64,000 bases of DNA from Shigella phage Ag3: sequence record FJ373894, one strand, 5' to 3'. Positions 194 to 40,873 of this stretch are shown one piece after another; the first letter of the stretch is position 1; every line of letters starts with the position of its first letter. The notes below the pieces were generated by a model, which worked only from the letters and a program-made list of their open reading frames with translations, did no database searches and had not been told where the DNA came from. The position numbers and the translations under genes were made by a program.

Positions 194-529
194 TTATTTT
201 TGAACTTTGGCTACCGACATCGCCCAGAGTGGGAGGGTGTGTGAGTCCAGGGCTTCCAGCAGATATTCAATGCGCTCTGACATGATGCCTTCAGGGAAGT
301 TTACTTCTTCCGGCTCGTTATTGGCCGTCCAGCCCAGAGATAACCCTTCAGCGTGATGGATGATATAAACGAAGTCGCCTGATTCGTAGTCCTTTTCCAT
401 CAGGTCGAAGAACGCTTCCATCTCTTCGTCGGAGAAATAGTAGATGCGAGGTACAGAGCCGTCAGCAAAGTGCTCAGCGCCCTGGAAGGCAAACATGTCA
501 TCGGCTGTGAAGTTCTTGAGTTGTGTCAT
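194..529 (-). CDS. hypothetical early protein
   Basis: ORF 194..550; start moved to ATG at 529, which is preceded by the conserved GGAACTATATC initiation motif. Confidence 0.55.
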   Translation of the reverse strand: MTQLKNFTADDMFAFQGAEHFADGSVPRIYYFSDEEMEAFFDLMEKDYESGDFVYIIHHAEGLSLGWTANNEPEEVNFPEGIMSERIEYLLEALDSHTLPLWAMSVAKVQK

Positions 530-551
530 GATATAGTTCCTTCGGTTCAAA

Positions 552-827
552 TTAACGGCGGAAAGGGCGGTTTGCGTTTTCGCGGTTAGACCAATTCTTT
601 TCAGCCCGAGCGATAGCCGCTGGACTCCATTCGCGTTCCCACTCTTTGTCTACTTCAGCCTGGTTGGCAGGCTCTACCATTTCAACACCAGGGAAGTCGC
701 GTGACATGATTTCGCGCAGCTGGGCAGCTGGGGCAGTCTGGGCGTGGATCAATTCTTCGCCGTCGTAAACCTTGGCCATCAGGTATTTCTGGCCGTGGCG
801 GATATATGCGTCGAGGATAATTTTCAT
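552..827 (-). CDS. hypothetical early protein
   Basis: ORF 552..848; start at 827 after GGAACTACACC; early promoter plus stem-loop immediately upstream (876-922). Confidence 0.55.
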   Translation of the reverse strand: MKIILDAYIRHGQKYLMAKVYDGEELIHAQTAPAAQLREIMSRDFPGVEMVEPANQAEVDKEWEREWSPAAIARAEKNWSNRENANRPFRR

Positions 828-852
828 GGTGTAGTTCCTGCTTTTCAAGTTG

Positions 853-881
853 GTGTCGTACTGCTTATGGAATGAAGTATA
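853..881. repeat. 29-bp direct repeat (copy 1) of early-promoter cassette
   Basis: gtgtcgtactgcttatggaatgaagtata is identical at 853-881 and 36499-36527. Confidence 0.7.
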
Positions 882-922
882 GGGAAGGATATTGAAGAAG
901 TAAAGGGGCGTTTGCCCCTTTT
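876..922 (-). promoter_or_regulatory. early promoter fused to stem-loop (PeSL-like): -35 TTTACT, 17 bp, -10 TATACT
   Basis: Minus-strand TTTACT-N17-TATACT (plus 876-904) overlapping hairpin GGGGC-GTTT-GCCCC (905-918); upstream of gene 552..827. Confidence 0.6.
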
Positions 923-934
923 ATTGAATTATTT

Positions 935-1573
935 TTAAGGCGTTGGGTTCACAATCGGAATGTGGAATCTGATTCCTGCGATGATATCCTTCAGCTGTGG
1001 CTTCCAGCCATCTACCAAACGGGGTAGAGCGATAGCACCAGGCTGAACTAAAATGATGTCGCTGCCTGTGATATTGTGCTGAGGGAACTGGGCAAGGTAC
1101 TGCTCCATGGTGACACCCTCATCAATCAGAACCGCACCGACGTCAGACGATGCGTAGGTTGCACCCAGACCGTCAACGCCCCACGCCAAGATGCCCCAGT
1201 CAGGGATGTTGGCTTCAGATGTGATGGTGAACCCAAACACAGTGTTCAGGGAGGTGAAGGAATAGACATCGTGAGTGATGTCATACACCAGATACCCCTT
1301 GGCCAGCATATCGGCAAAGATCGCGTCCGTATCCCCCGCCGCTGGAGTTGGCACAGAAAACAGCAGCTCGCCCTCAGGAGGGGCAGGATACGTGCCGAGG
1401 GCATAGAGGCACCATGCATCAATGCACTTCTTAATGAACGCCTCGGGTGCGACATAATCGGCAAGGCGCACAGTCCCCGAGTACTCGGATACGATGATGC
1501 CTTCCTTCGTGCCCTGTAGAGCGATGAAGACCAAGATATGTTCATATCCGGTCTGAGATGGAGTGATGTTCAT
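935..1573 (-). CDS. hypothetical protein
   Basis: ORF 935..1669; start moved to internal ATG at 1573, which overlaps the stop of the upstream gene (TAATG). Confidence 0.5.
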   Translation of the reverse strand: MNITPSQTGYEHILVFIALQGTKEGIIVSEYSGTVRLADYVAPEAFIKKCIDAWCLYALGTYPAPPEGELLFSVPTPAAGDTDAIFADMLAKGYLVYDITHDVYSFTSLNTVFGFTITSEANIPDWGILAWGVDGLGATYASSDVGAVLIDEGVTMEQYLAQFPQHNITGSDIILVQPGAIALPRLVDGWKPQLKDIIAGIRFHIPIVNPTP

Positions 1574-2187
1574 TATCTTGTCCTCTTCAGTTTCTCTATC
1601 GTGCGCTTGTTCATGGCGATCACCCGAGGATCTACCTCGGAGATGGTCCGGCCTTTGAAGGACACACATTTCTGAAGATATTTAGCTTTCTTCACGACGT
1701 CAGCGGCATAAGCGTTCGATGCGGGATTACGGGCGAAGCCAGCATTGTAAGAGGAGAGGGATTTGCGTACATTCTGCTTGTGATAGGTCAGCCAGAACTG
1801 CATCTCATCGAGGGCGGCTTGCGCGGCATATTCTTGGTCGGTCAGCAACTTTATGGCGACATTGGCATAGCACTTGCGATTCTTACAACCTTCGCGATCA
1901 CCAACTGTCTTCACCTTGTTCTGAAAGGCTCCCATGTTGGCCGCCTTGAGACCGTAGCGCATTGACACTACATCTTCACCAGCACGGCTCTCTCGCCAAG
2001 ATATGGCAGCCAGGGTGTAACCAAGATCTTGTGTCTTGCCTATGTGGTAGGCAGTTGCCAGCGTATTAAGTTGTTGCTCAGAGAAATCATAAACACATTG
2101 ACTTGTATTTTGGGAAGCGTGCACATTCCCGCTGGCAATGGTAAAGGTCACGGACAAGGCCATGGCCTTCAACGTTGTCATCGTCAT
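1573..2187 (-). CDS. secreted lytic transglycosylase-like protein (SLT-type motifs)
   Basis: N-terminal signal peptide (MTMTTLKAMALSVTFTIASGNVHA); E-S catalytic pair (SWRESRAGE), GAFQ and YNAG motifs typical of SLT domains; AAGGAA RBS. Confidence 0.5.
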   Translation of the reverse strand: MTMTTLKAMALSVTFTIASGNVHASQNTSQCVYDFSEQQLNTLATAYHIGKTQDLGYTLAAISWRESRAGEDVVSMRYGLKAANMGAFQNKVKTVGDREGCKNRKCYANVAIKLLTDQEYAAQAALDEMQFWLTYHKQNVRKSLSSYNAGFARNPASNAYAADVVKKAKYLQKCVSFKGRTISEVDPRVIAMNKRTIEKLKRTR

Positions 2188-2286
2188 GATGGCGTTCCTT
2201 ATGTGGATTGTCGACTTGCAGCTCGCTTGAGCCTCCTGACAGGGGTTAAAAGATAAAGGGCACGTGGTATTTAGTGCCCTTTGGCC

Positions 2287-10744: not shown

Positions 10745-10837
10745 CTGGATTTCTCCGTTGGGTTAATGTTTACTTTCATGTTCACTACAAGAGGACTACA
10801 GTTTAACTAAGAAATTTTATTGAATAAAGCGGAATTA

Positions 10838-11362: not shown

Positions 11363-12046
11363 TTACACCTCCACCGCGTGAGACTTCAGGAGTTCATCAA
11401 TCGCTTTCTGTCCCATATAAGAGAATGGGGTGCGCTGGTAGAATGCCCACAGAACCAACTGAACGACAGCGCGGGAACGGGTTTCGGCTCGCATCACCAG
11501 GTCGCTGAAATGAGGAGACTGCGCCGTCCATTGGATCTCTTCGCCCAGGTCTTGATTACAGGTCACGGAGATGCGGAACTTGTTGCACAGATTGTCGACT
11601 TCTTTGTACGCATCGGTAGACACCCGAAGTTGGTCTGCATGCGCCCATGGTGTCGTGACGATTCTTTCACCCATCACTTTATCAGAGATAAACCAATCAA
11701 TGGATTCAACAAACTTGCCGAAATGGTCGATGCGATAAATGCAGTCTCCCCCTTCCATAGAACGCATGGCATGATAGCGAGCGTCGATTTCGTTGTTGTG
11801 CATCGCGTTGAAGTCGATGAACACGCGACGCGCCAACACAACATCTTCCGGCTCCAGAGGGATGTATTCCCCTTCGTTGCTAGACCTCCGGATGTTCGGA
11901 TAATGTAGAATGCCGCTTAAATGCCCAGTGCAATATACATAACGAGGTCCAACACCCCCGACACGAGCATGAGCGACATAGGATGGTTCTGTGAATCGCA
12001 AGTGGCCTTGATCGGCACCGACGATAATAGAATAAAGTTTTTCCAT
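11363..12046 (-). CDS. hypothetical protein
   Basis: ORF 11363..12061; start at 12046 after conserved GAGAGACTATATC motif; terminator hairpin upstream. Confidence 0.55.
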   Translation of the reverse strand: MEKLYSIIVGADQGHLRFTEPSYVAHARVGGVGPRYVYCTGHLSGILHYPNIRRSSNEGEYIPLEPEDVVLARRVFIDFNAMHNNEIDARYHAMRSMEGGDCIYRIDHFGKFVESIDWFISDKVMGERIVTTPWAHADQLRVSTDAYKEVDNLCNKFRISVTCNQDLGEEIQWTAQSPHFSDLVMRAETRSRAVVQLVLWAFYQRTPFSYMGQKAIDELLKSHAVEV

Positions 12047-12059
12047 GATATAGTCTCTC

Positions 12060-12092
12060 AAATGAAAAGGGCGACCTTATGATAAGTCGCCC
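12060..12092 (-). terminator. rho-independent terminator
   Basis: Hairpin GGGCGAC-(9 nt loop)-GTCGCCC followed by TTTTCATTT on minus strand. Confidence 0.6.
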
Positions 12093-14061: not shown

Positions 14062-14140
14062 GGTGATTCTCCTTATTTCATTGGATGAAATGATAGGTGG
14101 CTCACCATGTTGAGTAAAGGGTTTCAATAAACTATCGTAT

Positions 14141-14590
14141 TCAGAAGCGAGCATCAGACACGGTTCTGAACTTCACACCCTTGAACTGCTTGGCGACCTT
14201 GACGAACTCCATCGCTGGCATGTCCACTTTGTAGACCTTGATGCGCTGGCGGTCATCCATGTTCAGAGCGGCCACATAGCGGTGTGAGCCGTCGACCACG
14301 TAATTGTCAGAAGACACCCAAACTCGACCCATGGGCTTCTTGTTCCGGATGTTCTTCATGATCTTCCAGACCTTCATCTTGTTGATTTCGTTCTGAGTGA
14401 GACGGAGGGATTTGATTGGAACCTGGCCAGCGTCGATAGTGATGCCAAGTTCCTCCAGGTAGTCGTGGAACGCCTGCTGCTTGTCATCGTCAATCTGCGG
14501 CATAGAAGAACGAGAAAGCCCGAGGTTTCCAACAGGAATCCTCAGGCCGTTGATAATGTTCAACCAGTCTATGAAGGAAGACATGAACAT
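14141..14590 (-). CDS. ParB-like nuclease domain protein (tentative)
   Basis: DGSHRYVAA motif resembling the ParB N-terminal/sulfiredoxin-like DGxHR motif; GAGGTG RBS. Confidence 0.4.
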   Translation of the reverse strand: MFMSSFIDWLNIINGLRIPVGNLGLSRSSMPQIDDDKQQAFHDYLEELGITIDAGQVPIKSLRLTQNEINKMKVWKIMKNIRNKKPMGRVWVSSDNYVVDGSHRYVAALNMDDRQRIKVYKVDMPAMEFVKVAKQFKGVKFRTVSDARF

Positions 14591-15071: not shown

Positions 15072-15442
15072 AACGTACCCCCGACAGAGATCAAGAACTC
15101 TTCTTCAATGGTCGTGACAGGGCGGCGGTTGCGGGTTTCGATCATGAAGCCCCAGCCGCCGTCGGCGACGTTGCCAAAGGTCTTGACGCCAAAGGTCTTC
15201 GTCCTGTTGGAGCAGGCATAGAAGTCCAGGATGAACGGACTGCCCTGATTGTCGATCCCACGGTTTACGCCGTCCGATACGCAGCGCTCAATCATCTTCC
15301 CGTTCTTATACAGAACGAGGTCTTGGCCATACGCCTTGAAAGCATAAACGCCGTTGGTGGACACTCCGGTAATCACAGGAGGAGCGGAAACAACAGCGAA
15401 GGAAGCGCCCAGCAGGGCAACAGCGAGGATTAACTTTTTCAT
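15068..15442 (-). CDS. secreted protein (signal peptide)
   Basis: Start at 15442 (MKKLILAVALLGASFAVVSA) after GAGACTATATC motif. Confidence 0.55.
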   Translation of the reverse strand: MKKLILAVALLGASFAVVSAPPVITGVSTNGVYAFKAYGQDLVLYKNGKMIERCVSDGVNRGIDNQGSPFILDFYACSNRTKTFGVKTFGNVADGGWGFMIETRNRRPVTTIEEEFLISVGGTL

Positions 15443-15501
15443 GATATAGTCTCTTGATTTCAAATGGGCGAGGCAATCATACCTCGCCGGAGTTTATAGA
15501 A

Positions 15502-15741
15502 TTAACTGATATGCTTCAGAAGAGCGAAGAGGATCGCGGCCTTGGCCTTTACCTTTCCCACGACGCCTGTCTCGACATCAACTTCTTCAGCAACCCACTC
15601 TTTGCCCTTCTTGCTGATGATAACGTCACGGCGCTGTGCGTAGACTTCTTTGGTCGCATACACACGGCGGAACCCCTTTGCGCGCAGCAAGCCCCAATTG
15701 CGATCAATCTCTACTGAAGTTTCGACCATTTTGTTCTTCAT
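15502..15741 (-). CDS. hypothetical basic protein
   Basis: Start at 15741 after AGGACTATATC; early promoter 15795-15822 upstream. Confidence 0.5.
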   Translation of the reverse strand: MKNKMVETSVEIDRNWGLLRAKGFRRVYATKEVYAQRRDVIISKKGKEWVAEEVDVETGVVGKVKAKAAILFALLKHIS

Positions 15742-15794
15742 GATATAGTCCTGCTTTCAAACAGGCGGGAACTATTCCCGCCCCAGAATTTGAA

Positions 15795-15822
15795 TTATAC
15801 GTGAGTTATTGAAGAAGTAAAC
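15795..15822 (-). promoter_or_regulatory. early promoter: -35 GTTTAC, 16 bp, -10 TATAAT
   Basis: Minus-strand GTTTAC-N16-TATAAT; T4-early/sigma70-like; upstream of gene starting 15741. Confidence 0.6.
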
Positions 15823-15837
15823 CGTTATTCAATATTC

Positions 15838-16122
15838 TTAACTTCTCTCCCAGATGTCTTCCAGGACATCACGCATATTTCTGAGTTCCGGAGTATCACC
15901 GAAGAAAGTTTCCATTTCCCCCTCTTCACCACCCGCCAACAACCAGAATGAGCTGTCAAGGTCTTCTGGGTCTTCTTCGTGGAAGAAACCCTGCTCAACC
16001 ATTTTGATGATAGAAGGTTCGGCGCGCTTGAAGTCCTTTTCTGTCACCACATCAGAGTAGTCGAACTGGTTGTCATAAGACATGATGGAAATGATCTTAT
16101 CAAATATTTCTTTGCTGGTCAT
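15838..16122 (-). CDS. hypothetical acidic protein
   Basis: Start at 16122 after AGGACTATATC; early promoter 16171-16199 upstream. Confidence 0.5.
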   Translation of the reverse strand: MTSKEIFDKIISIMSYDNQFDYSDVVTEKDFKRAEPSIIKMVEQGFFHEEDPEDLDSSFWLLAGGEEGEMETFFGDTPELRNMRDVLEDIWERS

Positions 16123-16170
16123 GATATAGTCCTGATTTCATCGGCCTTCACAATGAAGGCCGTCTATTGA

Positions 16171-16218
16171 ATAATAGCGGGTGTTTATCTAAAGTAAAGC
16201 CCCAACAAATGTTGGGGC
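16171..16218 (-). promoter_or_regulatory. early promoter fused to stem-loop (PeSL-like): -35 CTTTAC, 17 bp, -10 TATTAT
   Basis: Hairpin GCCCCAACAAATGTTGGGGC (16199-16218) overlaps -35; upstream of gene starting 16122 and downstream of ACP-like gene. Confidence 0.55.
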
Positions 16219-16223
16219 TTCTG

Positions 16224-19360: not shown

Positions 19361-21004
19361 TCAGATTTGTGAGGCCAGTTCCGCCACCAGAGGAGCGGCG
19401 CGGACACGCGCATCTTCCAGAGTTTGAGTGTTGAAGAACTTGCCGTCACGATACACCAGCTGGTGCTGGTTGTCGGCGTCTTGTACCTGATCAAAGGTGA
19501 TACCGTCAACCAACACTAGTTTACCCTGAGAGTCTTTAATGACTTTAAGGAAACCACGCGCAGACTTTTTAGTCCCGCCTTTATCGGTCTTCGGCTCTTT
19601 GAAGATCTCACGGAATTCACCGTTCACCTTACCAGCCGTTGCTTTCACCGCCGTGCCAGTACTGTCACGGGTGTTCATCTGGTAGGTGTAGGAACCGATA
19701 CCGAACACCACGTTGATGGAAGCGAAGTTCCGGCCAGCCAGACGGCTAAAGATCTGGTCTTCACGCGCCAGGGTGATGGAGTCGCCGTAAATCAGACCGA
19801 TGTGTTCGTCCAACAGGAAGTGGCCAGTTTCGGTCTGGGTCCCGCCAAAGATCTCCCACAGGCGCTGGATAGAGCCGACTGCTTCAGAACGGCTGATGAT
19901 ATTACGGTCGTCTGCCATCAGAGAGTTGATCGTGCCTTCGCCTGTAATCAGGTGATAGGTGTTCGTCTCTTCGATGTGAATGACTTCGGTGCTGCTAGAC
20001 ACGCCGCTGATGTTCAGCGTGGCGCGGTCTTTGAACCCCTCAATTCGGTAGCCGCCGACGATATGAACTGGGTCGCCCGAGTCAGGGCGGATCACGACTT
20101 TACCGTTACGCGCCATGATAATATCTTTCAGGCGCGGCAGATAGTCGTCGATGACCTGCCAGTAATCCCACGCATCAGACACGATGCTGACGATGCCATC
20201 AGGATACACGTCCTGCACCAGGCGGCGGAAGGTTTCGAATTCGCCATCCTTCGTACCCATACACATCACGGCGTGTTCGGTAGCCGCAACAGAACCAGCA
20301 ACGACATAGTCTTCGTCGATGTCTGCGCCATAATACTCTTCAACGAACGTGCGCCCACCGTCGCAGATATCATCGACCACCACCAGATAACGGTCTTTGA
20401 TCAGTTCAGGGTTTGTAATGCTCACCCCAATGATCTCACCAGTCTTGGTGTCACGGTTCTTGTGTCCGTAGACAACAGGAACGCCATCCAATGACAGGCT
20501 GAGGGCTTCGGTCTTCTTCGCCGCGCCGCCGTCAGGAGCTACCAGCACAGCGTTGTTCCCACGGATGAACCAGCCCAGATACTGCCGCACGATGTAATCT
20601 TGCGGGACAACATGGACGTTGTTGATCAGAGAAGTCACAACATGGCTGTGAGGGTCTTTGATCGCCACACGGTCAAAGTTCATGCTATTGATGAACTCAG
20701 CCGCCCACTTCACGGACAGAGGCTCTCCGAAGTCGCAATGGCGGTCCTGGCGAGCATACGGGAAGTAAGGGATATACGCATGGAAGGTCGTCAGACGGTC
20801 CACGTTACCCAGGCCGCGCACGGCGTTAACCAGCAGTGCCAGCTCAACGAAGTCGGCTGATGATTTGATGTGGGCATCAATCACCACGTTCTGGACGTGG
20901 CCGACAGGGATACCAGCCTTTTGGATCTTGATATGTTCCTCACCACCTGGGAAGGTGAAGTGTTTGTAGAACACATCTTGGTCGTTCAATTTCAAACGAA
21001 ACAT
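19361..21004 (-). CDS. fusion protein: ribose-phosphate pyrophosphokinase (Prs)-like N-domain plus nicotinamide phosphoribosyltransferase (NAMPT)-like C-domain
   Basis: N-terminus has IPYFPYARQDR and VVVDDICDGGRT (Prs motifs); C-terminus has VSDAWDYW, VIRPDSGDP, GLIYGDS and a long stretch alignable to NAMPT; single uninterrupted ORF; GAGG RBS. Confidence 0.75.
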   Translation of the reverse strand: MFRLKLNDQDVFYKHFTFPGGEEHIKIQKAGIPVGHVQNVVIDAHIKSSADFVELALLVNAVRGLGNVDRLTTFHAYIPYFPYARQDRHCDFGEPLSVKWAAEFINSMNFDRVAIKDPHSHVVTSLINNVHVVPQDYIVRQYLGWFIRGNNAVLVAPDGGAAKKTEALSLSLDGVPVVYGHKNRDTKTGEIIGVSITNPELIKDRYLVVVDDICDGGRTFVEEYYGADIDEDYVVAGSVAATEHAVMCMGTKDGEFETFRRLVQDVYPDGIVSIVSDAWDYWQVIDDYLPRLKDIIMARNGKVVIRPDSGDPVHIVGGYRIEGFKDRATLNISGVSSSTEVIHIEETNTYHLITGEGTINSLMADDRNIISRSEAVGSIQRLWEIFGGTQTETGHFLLDEHIGLIYGDSITLAREDQIFSRLAGRNFASINVVFGIGSYTYQMNTRDSTGTAVKATAGKVNGEFREIFKEPKTDKGGTKKSARGFLKVIKDSQGKLVLVDGITFDQVQDADNQHQLVYRDGKFFNTQTLEDARVRAAPLVAELASQI

Positions 21005-24786: not shown

Positions 24787-24901
24787 GATGTAGTCTTCCT
24801 GTTTCAGTTCAAATGTGCGCCCCGTTTGCCAGGGCGCTTCGTTTAAGTGAGGTCAATAATACGTTGAAAAAAGTTATTGAAGAATGAAGTAAAGGGAATC
24901 T

Positions 24902-26122
24902 TTATTCAGGTTTCTTCAAACGGTCCAGCAAATTGACGGAACCACGTTTGAGCACGACTTCATCACAGCGCTTTTTGTATTCCCCACCGCCGTCATAGCT
25001 GACCTTGCCCCGAGGTTTTTCGCCGCGCCCAACCGCCTCAACACAGCGAGTGTACTTGCTCAGTTCACAGAACATGTTCTCCAGCTGCATAACGTTCATG
25101 CATTGGTCTACAGGCTCTTCGGCCGACCAGAATTGCTCGCGAACATACCCATATTGGGAGTACACTGCGTCCTGATTATCCCGTAGCCAGAATATGCATT
25201 CTTCGTGAGTCATGCCGTCCTTGTTCAGGAACAGCAGATCAATACCTGCGCGACAGCCCGGTCCGGCGATCGTGAAGTGGTTCTCACTGAACGGATAACC
25301 AGGCATGTACGTGAAGTCAACCCAGATCTGGTATGCCAGGAATGGACCAAGACCTTCGATGTCGTCGTACATGCGCTGGTATACTTCCAGAGGAGTACCA
25401 AGGCGCAGCAGGTCATGGAAGTAATTTGGATACTTGTTGACGAATGCCTTCAGGGAACGGATGACACGCATTGGCATGTACGGCTCCCAGCCTTCTATGG
25501 TGTAGAAGTCCGGCTCTGCTTCAGCAATAGCCTTGGCTTCCTTATAATCCATGTTCTGGGTCGAACCGTCCTTACAGATCAGGTTCACCATCATCCCACC
25601 GAAGCGCTGCTCTTTGTGGTTGACAACCAGCTCAGGGAAAGCCAGGCATTGCTTCAGACCGCCTGTGTTGAAGGCATTGGTGAATACTTTACCGCCGTCG
25701 GCCTCGAACTTCTGAAGTCGTTCGCGGGTTGCGTCAAGGTTGATCTTGGCGAATTCTTTGATCGTCATCGCGCCGCCGATAGCCTGGATCGGATCCCAGA
25801 GGTTGAACATGCGGAACAGAACGCAGTTGAACATCTTGTCTGCCATGCCCAGAGCATCGTTCTTGACGATGTTATTGATCAGGTTGAGAGACTGCCTGTC
25901 GTGCTCTCTCCGGACGTTACAGAACTTGACCTGCCGTAGTATAGGATTATTGGTCCAAGGGGCAGGAAGACGCTGGACGTCCTTCTTGACGTGGATCTTA
26001 TAGCGCTCGCTCATCCATTCGTAAGACAGGCGGGTATGGGTCGGACTGAGAACCGGTTTGGCCGACTTTATCTTTTCTTCACGGACACCGCAGTACGGGA
26101 CGTCCAGGGCTTTATCTTTCAT
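24902..26122 (-). CDS. hypothetical protein (406 aa)
   Basis: Long ORF with AGAGGA RBS; no motif recognised. Confidence 0.6.
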   Translation of the reverse strand: MKDKALDVPYCGVREEKIKSAKPVLSPTHTRLSYEWMSERYKIHVKKDVQRLPAPWTNNPILRQVKFCNVRREHDRQSLNLINNIVKNDALGMADKMFNCVLFRMFNLWDPIQAIGGAMTIKEFAKINLDATRERLQKFEADGGKVFTNAFNTGGLKQCLAFPELVVNHKEQRFGGMMVNLICKDGSTQNMDYKEAKAIAEAEPDFYTIEGWEPYMPMRVIRSLKAFVNKYPNYFHDLLRLGTPLEVYQRMYDDIEGLGPFLAYQIWVDFTYMPGYPFSENHFTIAGPGCRAGIDLLFLNKDGMTHEECIFWLRDNQDAVYSQYGYVREQFWSAEEPVDQCMNVMQLENMFCELSKYTRCVEAVGRGEKPRGKVSYDGGGEYKKRCDEVVLKRGSVNLLDRLKKPE

Positions 26123-29738: not shown

Positions 29739-30078
29739 TTATGTATCCTCAAAATATAGTGGGGTTCAAGTCATGTTTGACGCAATCTAGTATCGCTGTG
29801 TTGTGCTTATAGAACAAGTGGCAAATTGCGCTACGCGTTATTAATAAATGCCTTCGGCATTTATGGACTTTATTAAAGATAATAACCTTTATTAATCCTA
29901 TTCGCTTCGCTCATAAAACAAATACTCGTTGTTCGTTAACACTCACAACTCGTATAATACCACGCCATTTGTTCAACAGGAAAGCAATTTTTATTCAACA
30001 GCAAAATTAATTTATTTGGTCTAAACATGCACGCGAAATAATATGTATGTCATGTTAACCAACACACGAGAGTAATAT
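29739..30078. promoter_or_regulatory. 340-bp AT-rich intergenic regulatory hub upstream of gp45
   Basis: Longest non-coding stretch in window; contains TTGTTC-N18-TATAAT (plus), TGCTTA box, hairpin AAATGCC-TTCG-GGCATTT; divergent to plus-strand ORF 30079. Confidence 0.5.
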
Positions 30079-30456: not shown

Positions 30457-31955
30457 TTACCCAGCGCCACCTTCATGAACTCCACAGGGTGGCGCTCTGT
30501 CAGGTAGAACTTGTATCGCTCATGAGAGTGCCTGATAGCGTGGTTCGTGCTGGCGTTGTACGACACATCATCCACTAAGTCCCATATCCACGCGACGTCC
30601 TTGGAGGAGTGCTGACGCATCAGACGACCCAATGTCTGTATGACGCGGATATATGACTTGCTCGGGTGCGCCAGTACAAGGTGGTGTAGCTTCTTGATTG
30701 ACACACCCTGTTGCATTGTCCCGTATGAAGCCAACAACGTGATATCCTCTCCATCCTCCATCGCTTTCTGTATGCGGCGGCGGTCTTCGATCTTCACTTC
30801 CCCGTTGATGACAAACACGTTGGGCTTGACTGCGCTCAGCATATCGTACACAACCATCATGTGGGCGTCAATACGCTCGAACATGATGGCCACGTTCCCT
30901 TTCAGATTCAGTGCCATCTTGGCGATCAGTTCGTTGCGGGACTGGTGTGTAATAAGGTATTCTATTTCCTTGGTATAATCCCCGTCCAGACCAACAGCAT
31001 CCGCCGGAGTGTGCTTTAGCTGAATCATCTTCACTTTGATGTCAGTGGCGTACCCGAGATTGATAAGGTCGCGAGCCGTGATGATCTTATGGTACGCCCC
31101 GAAGTGAGCCACCACCTGAAGCCCGGCAACTTTGGTGTTCGACAGCGTACCTGTAACCCCCAGGCGCTGGTCGGCGTAGATGCAGTTGTTGAGGATATAG
31201 GACAGTTTCTCAGACTTGGAGGTATGCACTTCATCCACCACGATGTCACCGAACTGGTGGAACCATTCCTTCGGCTGGTCTTGAATGCCCTGCCATGTAC
31301 TGATGACGATTGGTTTGCTGATTTCCTTTGTCGCGCCCTCAAAGATCAACTGAGTGTTGGCAACGGGCTTCCAATCGCTGCCGTGTGCGTACTCTTCAAA
31401 GTTGTCGTACAGCTGAGTGACCAGGTGAATCGACGGCACCACGATAAGCGTCTTCAGAGGACTTTCGAGAGCTTCTCTGCGCTGCCTGTAGTACCGCGCC
31501 ATGACATACAGAATAAAGGACTTACCAGCACTCGTAGCCAGTTCACAGACGCATCTGGTTTGACGCATAGCCTTGGCGATGGTGTCGTACTGATAGTCGC
31601 GGGTCTCAGCATCGATGTATTCGTGATTTTCGGTGCGGATCTTTGGATGGAGACTGTCGATGAAGTCATGGATTTCTTGATCTGGGATGTCCTGAATGTA
31701 CTTCAGAGCCGGATCCAGTTCAATGGTGTATTTGTTGTTCTTGCAGAACTTGAACACCTCAAACAGTAGGCCGATATCAATCAGACCGGATGACTTGGTG
31801 AACAAGCGAACAACCCCGTCCCATTTAGAGAAGGGGTTGGGAACGAAGTTCGGGTCTTCGAATTTGAAGTAGTCATTCAGCTCTTCCCTGATAGAAAGAT
31901 CTGCGATGCAACGCATGCGGACTTCGTTAACCTTAACAATCTGAATGTCTGCCAT
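30447..31955 (-). CDS. uvsW: UvsW helicase (SF2, DEVH box)
   Basis: Walker A TSAGKS, DEVH, TWQG...PKEWF, LHHLVLAH, QTLGRLMR align to T4 UvsW; 503 aa after start moved to 31955. Confidence 0.9.
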   Translation of the reverse strand: MADIQIVKVNEVRMRCIADLSIREELNDYFKFEDPNFVPNPFSKWDGVVRLFTKSSGLIDIGLLFEVFKFCKNNKYTIELDPALKYIQDIPDQEIHDFIDSLHPKIRTENHEYIDAETRDYQYDTIAKAMRQTRCVCELATSAGKSFILYVMARYYRQRREALESPLKTLIVVPSIHLVTQLYDNFEEYAHGSDWKPVANTQLIFEGATKEISKPIVISTWQGIQDQPKEWFHQFGDIVVDEVHTSKSEKLSYILNNCIYADQRLGVTGTLSNTKVAGLQVVAHFGAYHKIITARDLINLGYATDIKVKMIQLKHTPADAVGLDGDYTKEIEYLITHQSRNELIAKMALNLKGNVAIMFERIDAHMMVVYDMLSAVKPNVFVINGEVKIEDRRRIQKAMEDGEDITLLASYGTMQQGVSIKKLHHLVLAHPSKSYIRVIQTLGRLMRQHSSKDVAWIWDLVDDVSYNASTNHAIRHSHERYKFYLTERHPVEFMKVALGNHD

Positions 31956-31976: not shown

Positions 31977-31987
31977 GGGGTATTTAG
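31977..31987 (-). promoter_or_regulatory. late promoter motif CTAAATACCCC (uvsW)
   Basis: Minus-strand CGCTAAATACCCC about 25 nt upstream of uvsW ATG. Confidence 0.55.
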
Positions 31988-32730
31988 CGATCCGGCCAGA
32001 CTCCGTTCTGTTCTTTATCCATGCGATGGTACAGACGAACACGCTCAAACATCTTTGCCAGGATGTCATCGCGGTTGAACTCTATGATGGTTGGCGTCAA
32101 CGATGACTCGTTGGCAATCACATTGATGAGGCGGGTGATCTTGACACCGAACATCTGCTGGAACATAACAGAGTACAAGCACAGTTGGATACTGTAGTCC
32201 TCGATCATTCCCCGCGTCTTCATGGTGTTCGATGTCTTGAAGTCGATGATAGCAGGCTTACCCTCATAAACCCCAATAAGGTCCACTCGACCTGCGAGAC
32301 CAAGCACCTCGCTATATAACGGGATCTCCTGAGCATAGATCTTTGTCATCTTGTTCAGATAGGGGAACAGCTGCTTGAACATGAACATGTATTCGCCAGC
32401 CGCTTCCAACACTTCTTTCATTGGGCGGTTCTTCAAATACAGTTCACATGCAAGGTGCAGCTTCTCCCCTCGGTCAGCGCAACGCATGGTCTCAAGGTCG
32501 GCGGCCTCTGCACCCAGCTTCTCCCTCCAAGCCTCAAGCCATTCATGATCACCAGTACGCCCCAGCATCGTCGTTACAGACGTCAGCTTGACACCAGTTG
32601 GTGACACATAATGACGACCGTTCTCCGTCGTCACACACTCCAGTTCCTTATGAGGAAGTTCGTACTGCTGGAATGTGTAATGACGATTTTCGAAGTCGTT
32701 CAGCTTGCGCAGGGCTTGGAGAGATGCCAT
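31984..32730 (-). CDS. PD-(D/E)xK nuclease (RecB/Cas4-like)
   Basis: GRVDLIGV, IIDFKTS (D-x-K) and QLCLY motifs; start moved to 32730, overlapping uvsY stop. Confidence 0.6.
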   Translation of the reverse strand: MASLQALRKLNDFENRHYTFQQYELPHKELECVTTENGRHYVSPTGVKLTSVTTMLGRTGDHEWLEAWREKLGAEAADLETMRCADRGEKLHLACELYLKNRPMKEVLEAAGEYMFMFKQLFPYLNKMTKIYAQEIPLYSEVLGLAGRVDLIGVYEGKPAIIDFKTSNTMKTRGMIEDYSIQLCLYSVMFQQMFGVKITRLINVIANESSLTPTIIEFNRDDILAKMFERVRLYHRMDKEQNGVWPDR

Positions 32731-33182
32731 CAGGAACCATCCATATATTTTCGCCAATCGATGGCATTCTTCACTTCGTATCCCAGCTTGTTCAGGCGAT
32801 CCAAACAAGTCTCGATGAACTTGACTTTTGCTTTTTGTTCTTGTAACAGAACAGACAGTTCTACATAGTCATCGTCGGCTTTGACCCATGTGTCCAGGTC
32901 AGACTTCAGGGGGCGAACCTTCAGGGGGCGCTCTGCGTAGATGTTCGGGGGTAACTCCCCTGCGTAGTAGCGGCGCAGATAGAGATCGATCTGGCGGAAG
33001 CGCCCGTTGAGGAATTCAAGATAACGCCCCTCACGCAGATAATGCCGTTGTACGGCCATCCAAGAGCGCCCGATTTTCAGTGAGATCTGGTCAAGGTTCA
33101 TGTCTTCTGGGTCCACTGTAATCAGCGGCTCCAGTTCGTTCATGATGTCCTCGGTTGCCATTGTCTGTAGTTGTTCTTTCAT
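32730..33182 (-). CDS. uvsY: recombination mediator UvsY-like
   Basis: Size, position next to uvsW, and C-terminal pattern alignable to T4 UvsY. Confidence 0.6.
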   Translation of the reverse strand: MKEQLQTMATEDIMNELEPLITVDPEDMNLDQISLKIGRSWMAVQRHYLREGRYLEFLNGRFRQIDLYLRRYYAGELPPNIYAERPLKVRPLKSDLDTWVKADDDYVELSVLLQEQKAKVKFIETCLDRLNKLGYEVKNAIDWRKYMDGS

Positions 33183-35156: not shown

Positions 35157-35169
35157 TGGGGGTATTTAG
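35157..35169 (-). promoter_or_regulatory. late promoter motif CTAAATACCCCC inside a hairpin
   Basis: Upstream of late protein starting 35135; motif is one arm of palindrome AAATACCCCCAT-GGATG-ATGGGGGTATTT. Confidence 0.5.
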
Positions 35170-36190: not shown

Positions 36191-36472
36191 TTAGAACAAA
36201 TGCTCGCCTTCCACATGGTATGCTAACACGCCGTCAGAACATTCAAAATACATGTTATCATATTCCCACAGAGCGGTGATTTCTTCACCCTGGCAAACTA
36301 CCGAAAACTTCGGCTGGCTGGCCTTAACTGGAAATTTTTCAGGGGAAGAGATTGGGGTGAATTTGGCATTTCTGACGGCCATACCAACAAATTGCTGCAA
36401 TGTTACTTTGTAACGAGAGTGGGTGATAGTACCAGCATTCAGAGCTTCGATCAATTGCGCTTTAGTTGTCAT
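36191..36472 (-). CDS. hypothetical protein
   Basis: Start after GGAACTATATC; early promoter 36522-36550 upstream. Confidence 0.5.
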   Translation of the reverse strand: MTTKAQLIEALNAGTITHSRYKVTLQQFVGMAVRNAKFTPISSPEKFPVKASQPKFSVVCQGEEITALWEYDNMYFECSDGVLAYHVEGEHLF

Positions 36473-36498
36473 GATATAGTTCCTTCATTTCAGAGTCA

Positions 36499-36527
36499 GT
36501 GTCGTACTGCTTATGGAATGAAGTATA
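36499..36527. repeat. 29-bp direct repeat (copy 2) of early-promoter cassette
   Basis: Identical to 853-881. Confidence 0.7.
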
Positions 36528-36557
36528 CGGGGTTTATTGAAGAAGTAAACCCCGTAT
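36522..36557 (-). promoter_or_regulatory. early promoter fused to stem-loop (PeSL-like): -35 GTTTAC, 17 bp, -10 TATACT
   Basis: Perfect hairpin ATACGGGGTTTA/TAAACCCCGTAT contains -35; upstream of gene starting 36472. Confidence 0.6.
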
Positions 36558-36574
36558 TCAACTTTTTATTGAAT

Positions 36575-37260: not shown

Positions 37261-37272
37261 GATATAGATCCT

Positions 37273-37500
37273 TCAGTTCAAAATGGGATGTTCGTCGATA
37301 TCGGACTGCGTTGCAATCTCCCAGCGGACGATGTTCTCGGTTGTGATGAAATCACGGTTCAGGTGAGAGGCTGGCACATACACCATCGTGTCGACCATGA
37401 AGTAACGCTGCTCGTTGTTCCAGGAGTCAACGTAAGCCTCAATGAGGCATACTTCGATCACTTCGCCTTTCGGCTTCTTCACAGTCTTTTTCAGGTACAT
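37273..37500 (-). CDS. hypothetical protein
   Basis: Start moved to 37500 (GAGG RBS); track N-terminus lies in a terminator hairpin. Confidence 0.4.
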   Translation of the reverse strand: MYLKKTVKKPKGEVIEVCLIEAYVDSWNNEQRYFMVDTMVYVPASHLNRDFITTENIVRWEIATQSDIDEHPILN

Positions 37501-37560
37501 GACGCAGCCCTCGGATAGTAGACGGGGCAATAATACCTCTCGCCCCGTTATTGAAAACTG

Positions 37561-37761
37561 TTATCCTTCTTGTTCTTCCCAACCCCATTCATCTTCCCAA
37601 GACTGGCGAGGGGTCTTGCCCGCTTCGTAATCATCACGCCATGCGTCGGCGTCGGCGGCTGAACCACCCTGGCTTTTCGCGACTTTGCACAATACGTCGT
37701 GCCACTCACGGAAGGTGGAGTTGGCGACTGTGGTGTTTACAGAATCTTCTTTCAGGCTCAT
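37561..37761 (-). CDS. hypothetical acidic Trp-rich protein
   Basis: Start moved to 37761 (GAGGAA RBS). Confidence 0.4.
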   Translation of the reverse strand: MSLKEDSVNTTVANSTFREWHDVLCKVAKSQGGSAADADAWRDDYEAGKTPRQSWEDEWGWEEQEG

Positions 37762-37820
37762 TGTGATTTCCTCGATTAATAGAGAGGGTAATAATACCCT
37801 CATGCAATCTTTGAAACTCT

Positions 37821-38153
37821 TTATCCAGCCAAAGTCATATTCTGGGAACCAACCCCATCTTCACATTCTGGATGACATGAAGTGCCCAGTTTTTCATGGA
37901 TTACATCCAGATGGGTAAAGATAGCGTCGATGATATCGTCTTGGTCAGACTGGACGTCAATCACCAAGCCGACCAGACCAGGCGCGGCCATTTCTTTATC
38001 TTCACCTTTCTGAGTGGTTGGGTAATCACCGTCGAGTTGGATACGGATGTTTCTGATATTGGTGAGGAGGTTGCACAAACGCTCTTTATGAGAACGAGCA
38101 TTGACCAGAATTTGGGACACGGATTGTGTTGGTGATACGAGGTTACTTGACAT
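37821..38153 (-). CDS. hypothetical protein
   Basis: Start moved to 38153 (AGGAG RBS). Confidence 0.4.
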   Translation of the reverse strand: MSSNLVSPTQSVSQILVNARSHKERLCNLLTNIRNIRIQLDGDYPTTQKGEDKEMAAPGLVGLVIDVQSDQDDIIDAIFTHLDVIHEKLGTSCHPECEDGVGSQNMTLAG

Positions 38154-38245
38154 GATTTGTACTCCTGTTGTATGGTTGACTGTACAAGCATACAACAGGC
38201 AGGTGTATTGAACAACGCGGGTATTAAATCGACACGATAAAGGAA

Positions 38246-38473
38246 TTAACTCGGAATGTGTCTAGCGATCTTCTTGTTGATGTCGTCTAGCAGAATACTC
38301 ATCGTATCTTTGTAGACCTCTACAGCCAATATCGATTTGGAATTCATGAATGAGCTGAAGATACCAGATTTCAAACGCCTCAACTCCTTTTCCGCTTCTT
38401 CAATCTGTCCCATGATGTATTTCTTCGCGCCCTGTAGCTCTATAGCACGGATGTCTATTTCTTTATCGTTCAT
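38246..38473 (-). CDS. hypothetical protein
   Basis: Start moved to 38473; first gene after the gp23 terminator. Confidence 0.4.
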   Translation of the reverse strand: MNDKEIDIRAIELQGAKKYIMGQIEEAEKELRRLKSGIFSSFMNSKSILAVEVYKDTMSILLDDINKKIARHIPS

Positions 38474-38517
38474 GATGGCCTCCAATTAGTTTGGCACATC
38501 ATATAGCGAATCCCCAT

Positions 38518-38546
38518 AATGAAAAACCCCGCCGAAGCGGGGTTTT
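38518..38546 (-). terminator. rho-independent terminator after gp23
   Basis: AAAACCCCGC-cgaa-GCGGGGTTTT followed by TTTTTC; strongest hairpin in window. Confidence 0.8.
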
Positions 38547-40846: not shown

Positions 40847-40873
40847 GATTATTTCCTTCTGAACGATTTTCAG

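What the first reader, a model, noticed from the sequence alone, without database searches (positions are those of the whole stretch)
853..922. Promoter-early stem-loop cassettes repeated at gene boundaries
Four intergenic sites (876-922, 15795-15822, 16171-16218, 36522-36557) carry sigma70/T4-early-like promoters (G/C)TTTAC-N16-17-TATA(A/C)T on the minus strand; in three the -35 hexamer lies inside a GC-rich hairpin that terminates the upstream gene. Two cassettes share an identical 29-mer. This matches mobile promoter-stem-loop cassettes described in T4-type phages and marks likely recombination junctions.
Basis: partly seen in the sequence, partly recalled or inferred. Interest (0 to 1): 0.5.

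Follow-up and report, generated by a model that had tools for sequence, protein, structure and literature searches.

The report
Terminator-promoter cassettes marking gene-swap junctions
The four sites are real copies of a repeated intergenic unit (stem-loop, T4-early-type promoter, shared leader and ribosome site) in an Ackermannviridae phage, and related phages gain, lose or swap small genes at these units, as described for PeSL cassettes of T4-like phages.

Summary
All four sites lie on the gene-sense (minus) strand in intergenic gaps and read TTTACT-N16/17-TATACT, TATAAT or TATTAT. The strict motif gives 3 hits against 0.05 expected. GC-rich hairpins overlap the -35 at 902-921 and 16196-16221, and enclose it at 36525-36557. 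The 29-mer (853-881 = 36499-36527) is exact.

The window is not from a T4-type phage. It is an Ackermannviridae (Agtrevirus) genome, and its coordinates match Shigella phage PhiSboM-AG3 with an offset of 64000.

The family is larger than reported: a fifth strict copy at 14090-14118 and three variants at 24856-24893, 37523-37557 and 38498-38546. Copies sit at orthologous positions in four genera and are more conserved than the neighbouring genes.

Against four relatives, 8 of 42 homology break-points fall in cassettes that cover 1.2% of the window. One slot holds an ORFan between two cassettes here, an unrelated ORF between 73-nt direct-repeat cassettes in phage LHE287, and a single cassette elsewhere. 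One cassette-plus-gene module sits at different loci in two genera.

The PeSL reading is supported by sequence and comparison. Transcription, termination and recombination were not tested. Some of these promoters and terminators were already predicted in the AG3 and LIMEstone1 genome papers. I rate it a new member of a known kind, of modest interest.

The parts
828..934 (-). Cassette S1, from the upstream stop codon to the start codon. It holds an AT-rich TTCAATAAAA tract, the hairpin at 902-921, the -35 TTTACT at 899-904, the -10 TATACT at 876-881, and the leader with the 29-mer at 853-881. The ribosome-site context AGGAACTACACCATG (825-839) runs past the cassette's 3' edge into the start codon of the next gene.
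   Evidence: A profile built only from relatives' cassettes hits 819-941 at E 3e-33. The site is orthologous in 266 of 271 Ackermannviridae records.
552..827 (-). 91-aa gene of unknown function (phrog_5704) downstream of S1. It is absent from SKML-39, LHE287 and LIMEstone1, and ChubbyThor carries a different gene here. It is bounded by two copies of the 26-nt ribosome-site repeat (524-549 and 822-847).
   Evidence: (family D1).
14090..14131 (-). Cassette S5, not in the finding. It reads TTTATTGAAACCC + TTTACT-17-TATCAT and lies upstream of the spanin-like genes, inside the 3' end of the preceding ORF. Homology with relatives resumes just upstream of it. ChubbyThor has a homing-endonuclease gene inserted at 14147-14169.
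   Evidence: present in all 7 genomes compared.
15742..15837 (-). Cassette S2. It holds the AT-only inverted repeat TATTGAA/TTCAATA around the -35 (15807-15834), the promoter at 15794-15822, a GC hairpin downstream of the -10 at 15763-15784, and the ribosome-site context AGGACTATATCATG (15739-15752), which runs past the cassette's 3' edge into the start codon.
   Evidence: (E 3e-9). The promoter is listed as Porf138 and the hairpin as Torf139 in the AG3 paper's Table S2.
15838..16122 (-). 94-aa ORFan flanked by S3 and S2. This is the variable cargo of the slot downstream of the acyl-carrier-protein gene.
   Evidence: No PHROG or Pfam match. No tblastn match in 50,697 phage records or in IMG/VR. 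Window 15761-16190 is replaced by 67 bp in ChubbyThor, SKML-39 and LIMEstone1.
16123..16223 (-). Cassette S3. It holds the terminator-like hairpin at 16196-16221, TTTACT-16-TATTAT at 16171-16198, a second hairpin at 16142-16162, and the ribosome-site context (16120-16133), which runs past the cassette's 3' edge into the start codon.
   Evidence: (z -5.8). The hairpin is listed as Torf141. The ortholog is annotated 'putative early promoter' plus terminator in LIMEstone1. Its match to the family profile is only weak (E 0.12).
24787..24901 (-). Variant cassette V1. It reads TTTACTTCATTCTTCAATAAC...TATTAT at 24856-24893. The TTTACT is too far from the -10, and TCTTCA-16-TATTAT is the alternative reading. 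A GC hairpin lies at 24817-24837.
   Evidence: (E 0.018 over nearly the whole profile). LIMEstone1 has a homing-endonuclease gene inserted at the upstream edge.
36473..36574 (-). Cassette S4. It holds the AT-rich TTCAATAAAAAGTTGAATA tract, the hairpin at 36525-36557 that encloses the -35 and spacer, the promoter at 36522-36549, the 29-mer at 36499-36527, and the ribosome-site context (36470-36485), which runs past the cassette's 3' edge into the start codon.
   Evidence: z -5.2; E 5e-31. It is 96.7% identical to CBA120 while the upstream gene is 80.6%. The downstream gene differs by genus.
37523..37557 (-). Variant cassette V2. It reads TTTTCAATAACGGGGCgagaggtattattGCCCCG, that is TTTTCA-16-TATTAT with a hairpin across the spacer and -10. 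It is the conserved right edge of the variable region downstream of the major capsid gene.
   Evidence: Homology with ChubbyThor, LHE287 and SKML-39 starts at this element whatever lies upstream.
38498..38546 (-). Variant cassette V3. It holds the capsid-gene terminator AAAACCCCGCttcgGCGGGGTTTT at 38523-38546, whose T-tract runs into TTTTCA-16-TATGAT at 38498-38525. It is the left edge of the same variable region.
   Evidence: The hairpin is listed as Torf185. Each relative carries a different promoter-like sequence immediately after the shared hairpin.
37558..38497 (-). Variable cargo between V3 and V2: three small ORFs (37561-37803, 37821-38195, 38246-38473). ChubbyThor, LHE287 and LIMEstone1 have a 1.5-kb HNH endonuclease gene here, and SKML-39 has other small ORFs.

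Best explanation
These are compact intergenic expression cassettes of a ViI-like (Ackermannviridae, Agtrevirus) phage, built like the PeSLs of T4-like phages.

Each cassette combines three parts:
1. A GC-rich stem-loop that probably terminates or attenuates transcription arriving from upstream. Its T-tract, or its stem, doubles as the -35 element.
2. A promoter of the T4-early type for the host's sigma-70 RNA polymerase (TTTACT, 16-17 nt, TATAAT-like).
3. A conserved leader of about 45 nt ending in a shared ribosome-binding context (GAAGGAACTATATCATG).

The copies share 30-100 nt of near-identical sequence. They therefore offer the phage's own homologous-recombination machinery (genes annotated in related phages as UvsX-, UvsY- and gp46/gp47-like) short patches of homology at positions where an exchange does no harm. 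Exchanges between copies would insert, delete or replace the small genes next to them, and the incoming gene would arrive with its own promoter and terminator.

Shown here: the sequence architecture, its excess over chance, its conservation, and its coincidence with indel and replacement junctions.

Inferred: that the promoters fire early, that the hairpins terminate, and that recombination occurs through the cassettes rather than merely next to them.
For: Architecture and excess over chance.

Homology among copies:
- A profile built from relatives' cassettes only finds S1, S4 and S2 at E 3e-33, 5e-31 and 3e-9, V1 at 0.018, and leader-only partial copies at 521-554, 37254-37309 and 15434-15469. 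All are on the gene strand.

Conservation:
- The cassettes are present at orthologous sites in Agtrevirus, Limestonevirus, Kuttervirus and Taipeivirus.
- They are more conserved than adjacent coding DNA. S4 is 96.7% identical to CBA120 against 80.6% for the upstream gene, and S1 is 90.3% against 76.3%.

Junction evidence:
- 8 of 42 merged homology edges against four relatives lie in cassettes covering 1.2% of the window (binomial 3e-8).
- 8 of 15 intergenic edges lie at 7 of 38 intergenic gaps (p 0.002).
- The slot downstream of the acyl-carrier-protein gene holds an ORFan between S3 and S2 here. In LHE287 it holds an unrelated 74-aa ORF between 73-nt direct-repeat cassettes (67/73 identical). 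In SKML-39, ChubbyThor, RC-2014, LIMEstone1 and CBA120 it holds one cassette.
- The region downstream of the capsid gene is swapped exactly between V3 and V2.
- A 118-aa gene preceded by terminator and cassette lies between the tail-sheath and tail-tube genes in LHE287. Its homolog, with the same cassette, lies directly after the capsid gene in Menlow.
- The S2 allele in the window resembles the Taipeivirus allele rather than that of its closest relatives.
- The S4 leader in the window carries two bases that match its paralog S1 where the closest relatives differ.

Agreement with the published PeSL description and consensus.

Independent predictions of promoters or terminators at these sites: the AG3 Table S2 and the LIMEstone1 annotation.
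Against: - No transcript, reporter or recombination data exist for these sites. Two literature searches found no transcription-start mapping for Ackermannviridae.
- The U-tracts after the hairpins are short (UUUACUUCUU) or absent (S4). The terminator scan did not call them on the gene strand.
- S1, S3, S4 and S5 sit at the same locus in four genera, so most copies are inherited vertically and are not currently moving.
- Copy number is low: 5 strict and 3 variant copies in 64 kb, and 8 in 150 kb of LIMEstone1, against about 50 per genome for RB49/phi1.
- Several indels are clearly not cassette-to-cassette events. These include homing-endonuclease insertions, a microhomology deletion inside the gene after S4 in LHE287, and the 864-bp deletion at 20340.
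- Viable indels must end in intergenic DNA anyway. The association test is therefore suggestive, not proof of cause, and its edges were merged by hand.
Confidence: 0.72

Rival explanations
1. These are ordinary, vertically inherited early promoters and terminators. The copies resemble each other because a strong promoter, a good ribosome site and a useful leader are each under the same selection. Indels end there only because intergenic DNA is the only place where they are tolerated. On this view the cassettes play no causal part in recombination.
For: S1, S3, S4 and S5 are at orthologous loci in four genera. The ribosome-site context AGGAMTATATCATG is genome-wide (13 hits against 0.6 expected). 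Many indels in the window have other causes.
Against: Identity between paralogs extends through bases with no known promoter role: a 29-nt exact and 37-nt 92% leader. LHE287 carries a 73-nt direct duplication of terminator plus promoter around an inserted ORF. The same cassette-plus-gene module sits at non-orthologous loci in two genera. Break-points are enriched at cassette gaps relative to other intergenic gaps (p 0.002).
Confidence: 0.18
2. The promoters are not host-only early promoters. They depend on a phage-made factor (middle class), as the LIMEstone1 record labels the S1 ortholog. The recurrent TTCAATAA/TTATTGAA elements around the -35 would be the factor's binding sites.
For: The LIMEstone1 record calls the S1 ortholog and two similar sites 'putative middle promoter'. 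TTCAATA is over-represented (24 against 6.8 expected), with 12 copies intergenic, and it forms inverted repeats around the -35 in S2 and S4.
Against: None of S1-S5 has a T4 MotA box (TGCTT near -30). The hexamers and spacing are those of T4 early promoters. The LIMEstone1 coordinates for the S1 site lie 21 nt from any plausible hexamer. The AG3 and LIMEstone1 papers do not mention MotA or AsiA.
Confidence: 0.07
3. The conserved part is chiefly an RNA element. On this view the shared leader acts as a translational enhancer, a processing site for the phage's RegB-like nuclease, or a small RNA, and the DNA-level repeat is a by-product.
For: The leader and ribosome-site part is the most repeated segment, including copies without any promoter. 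A gene annotated as RegB-like in relatives lies next to S1 (window 1573-2187).
Against: There is no Rfam match. The leader's predicted structure is weak and differs between S1 and S4. A possible anti-Shine-Dalgarno pairing (CUUCAUUCC with GAAGGAA) shows no covariation in the cassettes where that segment is replaced. This reading does not explain the promoter-plus-hairpin duplications.
Confidence: 0.03

Closest known systems
PeSL (promoter-early stem-loop) cassettes of T4-like phages RB49/phi1, T4/PST and KVP40/nt-1 (Arbiol et al. 2010, PMC2839356; Comeau et al. 2014, PMC4122927)
   Same: The order of parts is the same: stop codon, AT-rich tract, stem-loop at a variable position relative to the -35 and -10, sigma-70-type promoter, Shine-Dalgarno and start codon. 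The promoter type matches the T4/PST set (TTTACW-N17-TAYWAT). The cassettes lie in front of small genes of unknown function. Genes flanked by two cassettes in one phage correspond to a single cassette in a close relative.
   Different: The host phage belongs to a different family (Ackermannviridae). There are roughly ten copies per genome rather than about fifty. Most copies are fixed at orthologous sites across four genera. The shared segment includes a long conserved leader and ribosome-site block that on its own also bounds indels. No functional or mini-circle data exist.
Predicted early promoters and rho-independent terminators of PhiSboM-AG3 (Anany et al. 2011, PMC3121705, Table S2) and of LIMEstone1 (Adriaenssens et al. 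2012, PMC3296691; record HE600015)
   Same: These are the same physical sites. AG3 Porf138 is the S2 promoter, Torf141 is the S3 hairpin, Torf139 is the S2 downstream hairpin and Torf185 is the V3 hairpin. LIMEstone1 annotates the S3 and S4 orthologs as 'putative early promoter' with the same hexamers, overlapping a terminator.
   Different: Those papers list promoters and terminators as separate items. They do not list the S1, S3 or S4 promoters in AG3. They do not note that the sites are copies of one repeated cassette or that gene content changes at them.
T4 early promoters (sigma-70 dependent, -35 GTTTAC type; from my own knowledge of the T4 literature)
   Same: -35 GTTTAC(T/A), spacing of about 17 nt, a TATAAT-like -10, and A/T-rich DNA upstream.
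   Different: There is no TG extension of the -10. In three cassettes the upstream A/T tract is separated from the -35 by a GC hairpin.

Membership tests
PeSL cassettes (Arbiol 2010; Comeau 2014) | Sigma-70-like promoter with -35 and -10 about 17 nt apart (T4/PST type TTTACW-N17-TAYWAT) | tested here: met
   S1-S5 read TTTACT-16/17-TATACT, TATAAT, TATTAT, TATACT and TATCAT. S2 and S3 fit the consensus fully. S1 and S4 differ at one -10 base, as does S5. This is sequence evidence only.
PeSL cassettes (Arbiol 2010; Comeau 2014) | Stable stem-loop within the motif, at a variable position relative to the promoter | tested here: met
   The stem-loop is upstream and overlaps the -35 in S1 and S3, and spans the -35 to the -10 in S4 and V2. 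It lies downstream of the -10 in S2, in V1, and as a second hairpin in S3. z-scores range from -2.3 to -5.8.
PeSL cassettes (Arbiol 2010; Comeau 2014) | AT-rich tract between the upstream stop codon and the -35 | tested here: met
   Present in S1, S2, S4 and S5, where it contains TTCAATAA or TTATTGAA. Absent in S3.
PeSL cassettes (Arbiol 2010; Comeau 2014) | Shine-Dalgarno sequence and start codon of the downstream gene at the 3' end | tested here: met
   (G)AAGGAACTATATCATG or AGGACTATATCATG is present in S1-S4.
PeSL cassettes (Arbiol 2010; Comeau 2014) | Many repeated copies (about 50 per genome) concentrated in hyperplastic regions | tested here: inconclusive
   There are 5 strict and 3 variant copies in 64 kb, and 8 family copies in 150 kb of LIMEstone1, all on one strand between 27 and 95 kb. 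The element is repeated and clustered, but roughly five times rarer.
PeSL cassettes (Arbiol 2010; Comeau 2014) | Placed in front of ORFans or small genes of unknown function | tested here: met
   All ten flanking small ORFs tested lack a known function, and two have no PHROG family at all.
PeSL cassettes (Arbiol 2010; Comeau 2014) | Insertions, deletions and replacements between close relatives are bounded by the cassettes | tested here: met
PeSL cassettes (Arbiol 2010; Comeau 2014) | Demonstrated promoter and terminator activity, and mini-circles formed by exchange between neighbouring cassettes | not testable with these tools
   This needs reporter assays, transcript-end mapping and outward-facing PCR on infected cells.
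PeSL cassettes (Arbiol 2010; Comeau 2014) | Described host range: T4-like myoviruses | tested here: not met
   The best matches are Ackermannviridae, Aglimvirinae, Agtrevirus. Window coordinates plus 64000 reproduce seven entries of the AG3 Table S2. This limits where PeSLs have been described. It is not a functional criterion.
T4 middle (MotA/AsiA-dependent) promoters | MotA box (TGCTT) centred near -30 in place of a -35 element | tested here: not met
   None of S1-S5 has TGCTT between -40 and -20.
Intrinsic (rho-independent) terminators | GC-rich stem-loop followed directly by a U-rich tract on the transcribed strand | tested here: inconclusive
   The stems are strong. The tails are UUUACUUCUU (S1), UUUACUUUAG (S3) and AUACUUCAUU (S4). 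The scan calls these hairpins only on the opposite strand. The AG3 paper lists the S3 hairpin as a terminator.
Rfam RNA families | Match at the gathering threshold | tested here: not met
   There are no matches in the whole window.

The most novel reading that the evidence does not exclude
The cassettes could be the exchange sites of a family-wide gene-cassette system. Promoter-leader-gene-terminator modules would move between loci, and between Ackermannviridae genera that infect different hosts, through recombination at the cassettes, possibly via excised circles. In addition, the TTCAATAA/TTATTGAA elements that bracket the -35 could be binding sites for an unidentified phage or host protein that controls either expression or exchange.
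Probability: 0.2. Interest if true: 0.55.

Novelty: new member of a known kind. Interest (0 to 1): 0.36.

Why it matters
PeSLs were proposed as a general way for T4-like phages to shuffle accessory genes without wrecking expression, but they have been described only within that group. The same design in Ackermannviridae extends the idea to a second family. These phages are widely used as biocontrol and therapy candidates against Salmonella, E. coli O157, Shigella, Klebsiella and Dickeya.

The finding has three practical uses:
- It shows where new accessory genes are likely to appear in these genomes, and where insertions should be tolerated when engineering them.
- It offers a small set of portable early-expression units.
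- It gives about 270 sequenced genomes in which the association between cassettes and break-points can be tested statistically.

It does not change how phage transcription or recombination is understood.

Tried and rejected
- A scan of IMG/VR for the 15-mer TTTACTTCTTCAATA returned mostly unrelated contigs and was uninformative, because the pattern is too short and AT-rich.
- Generic sigma-70 and terminator scans are at chance level across the window. They cannot by themselves support the finding.
- Literature searches for transcription-start or RNA-seq data on Ackermannviridae found nothing usable. No paper in the library links PeSLs to this family.
- The 94-aa ORFan could not be traced to any other phage, so its origin is unknown.
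- I considered whether CUUCAUUCC just after the -10 pairs with the Shine-Dalgarno region, so that only promoter-initiated transcripts would be translated. Cassettes that replace that segment show no compensating change, so I dropped the idea.
- I rejected the 'middle promoter' label carried by the LIMEstone1 record for the S1 ortholog. There is no MotA box, and the annotated hexamers lie 21 nt from any plausible -10.
- The loss of the gene after S4 in LHE287 turned out to be a microhomology deletion that leaves a remnant, not a cassette-to-cassette exchange.

Full report
**What is at the coordinates.** On the minus strand, which carries most genes of the window, the four sites read as follows.
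- S1: hairpin AAAGGGGCaaacGCCCCTTT at 902-921, -35 TTTACT at 899-904, 17-nt spacer, -10 TATACT at 876-881.
- S2: GTTTACTTCTTCAATAACTCACGTATAAT at 15794-15822.
- S3: hairpin at 16196-16221, then TTTACT-16-TATTAT at 16171-16198.
- S4: TTTACT-16-TATACT at 36522-36549, inside a 12-bp-stem hairpin at 36525-36557.

Each site lies between a stop codon and a start codon, and each ends in (G)AAGGAACTATATCATG or AGGACTATATCATG. The 29-mer TATACTTCATTCCATAAGCAGTACGACAC is exact at 853-881 and 36499-36527.

The -10 of S3 is TATTAT. The spacer is 16-17 only when the hexamer is read as TTTACT. In S1 and S3 the hairpin overlaps the -35 by only three T, whereas in S4 the -35 lies wholly within the stem.

**Is it more than chance?** The strict motif gives 3 hits against 0.05 expected, and the 17-mer core gives 3 against 0.11. 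By contrast, a generic sigma-70 scan finds no more sites than shuffled sequence. The evidence therefore rests on this particular repeated family and not on general promoter-likeness. The intergenic RNAs fold better than shuffles, with z from -2.3 to -5.8.

**Where the window comes from.** The best DNA matches are Ackermannviridae of the subfamily Aglimvirinae: SKML-39 at 96% and ChubbyThor at 98%. Adding 64000 to window coordinates reproduces, with matching sequence, seven entries of Table S2 of the PhiSboM-AG3 genome paper. These are Porf138, Porf170, Porf206, Torf131, Torf139, Torf141 and Torf185 (compare). I infer that the window is bases 64001-128000 of Shigella phage PhiSboM-AG3. This is a ViI-like phage with T4-related replication, late-transcription and structural genes, but it is not a T4-type phage.

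**The family is larger than four.** A fifth strict copy, S5, lies upstream of the spanin-like genes and is present in all seven genomes compared. It reads TTTATTGAAACCC + TTTACT-17-TATCAT at 14090-14131. There are also three variants.
- V1 at 24856-24893.
- V2 at 37523-37557, which reads TTTTCA-16-TATTAT with a hairpin across the spacer and -10.
- V3 at 38498-38546, where the capsid-gene terminator's T-tract runs into TTTTCA-16-TATGAT.

A profile built only from relatives' cassettes recovers S1, S4 and S2 at E 3e-33, 5e-31 and 3e-9. It recovers V1 at 0.018 and S3 at 0.12. It also finds three promoter-less copies of the leader and ribosome-site block at 521-554, 15434-15469 and 37254-37309, all on the gene strand.

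In 150 kb of LIMEstone1 the motif occurs 10 times against 2.95 in shuffles. Eight of those hits are intergenic, on the gene strand, and lie between 27 and 95 kb. Five of the eight have a hairpin abutting or enclosing the -35.

**Conservation.** The S1 cassette is found in 271 phage records, all but a few of them Ackermannviridae, usually at 2-3 places per genome. Aligned copies from Agtrevirus, Limestonevirus, Kuttervirus (CBA120) and Taipeivirus (Menlow) show S1, S3, S4 and S5 at orthologous sites. The cassettes are more conserved than the genes beside them. S4 is 96.7% identical to CBA120 and 91.1% to Menlow, against 80.6% and 75.9% for the upstream gene. S1 is 90.3% and 82.1%, against 76.3% and 72.6%. 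Hairpin stems are invariant while the loops vary.

**Gene content changes at the cassettes.** I compared the window with ChubbyThor, SKML-39, LHE287 and LIMEstone1 by blastn and merged the homology edges into 42. Eight edges fall inside cassettes that make up 1.2% of the window (binomial 3e-8). Among the 15 edges that lie near any intergenic gap, eight are at the seven cassette-bearing gaps out of 38 (p 0.002). The edges were merged by hand and are not phylogenetically independent, so these numbers are indicative only.

Individual cases are clearer.
1. The slot downstream of the acyl-carrier-protein gene has three states.
   - The window has S3, a 94-aa ORFan and S2. The ORFan has no relative in PHROGs, 50,697 phage records or IMG/VR.
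   - LHE287 has an unrelated 74-aa ORF between two direct-repeat copies of terminator plus promoter. These are 67/73 identical, and four of the six differences are an inverted loop.
   - SKML-39, ChubbyThor, RC-2014, LIMEstone1 and CBA120 have a single cassette.
2. The region downstream of the capsid gene is exchanged exactly between V3 and V2. The window has three small ORFs, SKML-39 has other ORFs, and three other phages have a 1.5-kb HNH endonuclease gene. Homology ends at the shared terminator's T-tract and resumes at TTTCAATAACGGGG.
3. A 118-aa gene preceded by a terminator and a cassette lies between the tail-sheath and tail-tube genes in LHE287. Its homolog, with the same cassette, lies directly after the capsid gene in Menlow. 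In other words, the same module occupies different loci in two genera.
4. The gene after S4 differs by genus. It is 93 aa here, 154 aa in CBA120 and 99 aa in Menlow, behind an almost unchanged cassette.
5. The 91-aa gene after S1 (552-827) is missing from SKML-39, LHE287 and LIMEstone1. Exactly one copy of the 26-nt ribosome-site repeat is left there, where the window has two copies (524-549 and 822-847). The same kind of repeat bounds the denV or gp155 insertion at 15438-15500.
6. The S2 allele of the window resembles Menlow's rather than that of its nearest relatives. The S4 leader carries GTACGAC, like its paralog S1, where the nearest relatives have GCACAAC. Both observations point to recombination or gene conversion.

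**Most likely mechanism.** Each cassette ends the transcript arriving from upstream, at least in part. It restarts transcription from a host-polymerase promoter whose -35 is built from the terminator's T-tract or buried in the stem. It also supplies a standard leader and ribosome site. Because the copies share tens of bases, homologous recombination between them can delete, insert or replace the adjacent small genes while keeping them expressible. The window and its relatives encode genes annotated in related phages as gp46/gp47, UvsX, UvsY and UvsW. This is the model proposed for PeSLs.

The architecture, the conservation and the junction coincidence are shown here. Promoter timing, termination and the recombination pathway are inferred.

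**What counts against it.**
- The U-tracts are short or absent, and the terminator scan calls these hairpins only on the opposite strand.
- Most copies are fixed at the same loci across genera.
- Copy number is about a fifth of that in RB49/phi1.
- Several indels have other causes. These include homing endonucleases at 14147-14169, 24910-24989, 30750-30795, 32722-32731 and 44419-44424, and a microhomology deletion in LHE287.

**Comparison with what is known.** The closest described system is the PeSL of T4-like phages. Every sequence-level criterion is met except copy number and host family, and the functional criteria cannot be tested here.

The sites themselves are partly in the literature. 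The AG3 paper lists the S2 promoter and the S3, S2-downstream and V3 hairpins. The LIMEstone1 record annotates the S3 and S4 orthologs as putative early promoters overlapping terminators, and the S1 ortholog as a 'middle promoter'. I reject the 'middle' label, because there is no MotA box and the annotated hexamers are offset by 21 nt.

Neither paper treats the sites as one repeated cassette or links them to gene exchange. No paper in the searchable library connects PeSLs with Ackermannviridae. There is no Rfam match and no tRNA in the window.

**Verdict.** This is a new member of a known kind. It is useful for annotating and engineering ViI-like phages and for testing the PeSL idea on a large genome set, but it is not surprising to a specialist. 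Interest 0.36.

Noticed in passing
window 19361-21004 (minus strand); junction near 20340-20347: This 547-aa ORF is a chimera. The N-terminal part of a ribose-phosphate pyrophosphokinase (Pribosyltran_N, Pribosyltran) is fused to the C-terminal part of a nicotinamide/nicotinate phosphoribosyltransferase. ChubbyThor, SKML-39 and LHE287 all have 864 bp more here, encoding two separate genes, and the junction shows an 8-bp overlap. It could be a real deletion that inactivates the NAD-salvage pair, or an assembly error.
   Followed up: partly
window-wide, e.g. 890-896, 922-928, 10818-10824, 15807-15813, 16165-16171, 24875-24881, 36535-36541, 36567-36573, 37549-37555 (minus strand): The heptamer TTCAATA occurs 24 times against 6.8 expected, and 12 copies are in intergenic DNA. 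It appears in the promoter spacer, just after upstream stop codons, and as the inverted pair TTATTGAA...TTCAATAA around the -35. Its role is unknown. It could be an UP-element-like tract or a protein-binding site.
   Followed up: partly
window 524-549, 822-847, 15437-15462, 36467-36492, 37255-37280 (repeat family D1); also 12039-12071: A 26-nt translation-initiation block (TGAA..GAAGGAACTATATCATGACA) is repeated in front of at least five genes, some of them without a promoter. The shorter context AGGAMTATATCATG occurs 13 times against 0.6 expected. Two indels relative to other phages end in these repeats.
   Followed up: partly
window 2267-2274, 31980-31987, 35162-35169, 40873-40880, 41229-41236, 46396-46403, 50673-50680, 59077-59084, 61533-61540 (all minus strand): CTAAATA(C/A) occurs 9 times against 1.5 expected, always on the gene strand, mostly just upstream of structural genes. 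It looks like the late-promoter element of this phage group (compare T4 TATAAATA).
   Followed up: partly
window 16196-16221 and orthologs in L002-L005: The loop of the terminator hairpin after the acyl-carrier-protein gene reads GTTT in some relatives and AAAC, its reverse complement, in others. It reads ATTT in the window, and the stem is unchanged. The two flanking copies in LHE287 differ in exactly this way. This suggests that the palindrome centre can flip.
   Followed up: no
window 14147-14169, 24910-24989, 30750-30795, 32722-32731, 44419-44424: These are sites where relatives carry homing-endonuclease or intron insertions that the window lacks: NUMOD3, F-LimVI, I-LimI in uvsW, an endonuclease next to uvsY, and GIY-YIG between the tail-tube and tail-sheath genes.
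   Followed up: no
window 29739-30020: This is an unusually long intergenic region (282 bp) next to the sliding-clamp gene. It is AT-rich, with several promoter-like sequences, repeated TTGAA(T/C)AAA motifs and a perfect hairpin ATAAATGCCgaaGGCATTTAT. LIMEstone1 annotates divergent promoters in the equivalent region. Its function was not examined.
   Followed up: no
window 58982-59051 and 63667-63736: A 70-nt repeat (79% identical) covers the ribosome site and the first codons (ATGAATCCGCAATTT...) of two large genes in the tailspike region. This is consistent with a shared N-terminal anchor module on different tailspikes.
   Followed up: no
window 36499-36527 versus orthologs in L007-L009, L131: The S4 leader in the window reads CAGTACGAC, identical to its paralog S1 and to Menlow, whereas ChubbyThor, SKML-39, LIMEstone1 and CBA120 read CAGCACAAC.
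   Followed up: partly
locus L001 (LIMEstone1 HE600015, record 61690-61730): The deposited coordinates of the 'terminator' and 'middle promoter' features at the S1 ortholog do not coincide with the hairpin or with any plausible hexamer. The annotated -10 is offset by 21 nt from TATACT, and the annotated terminator (locus 1540-1564) lies downstream of the actual hairpin (locus 1514-1533). The early-promoter features at the S3 and S4 orthologs are exact.
   Followed up: partly
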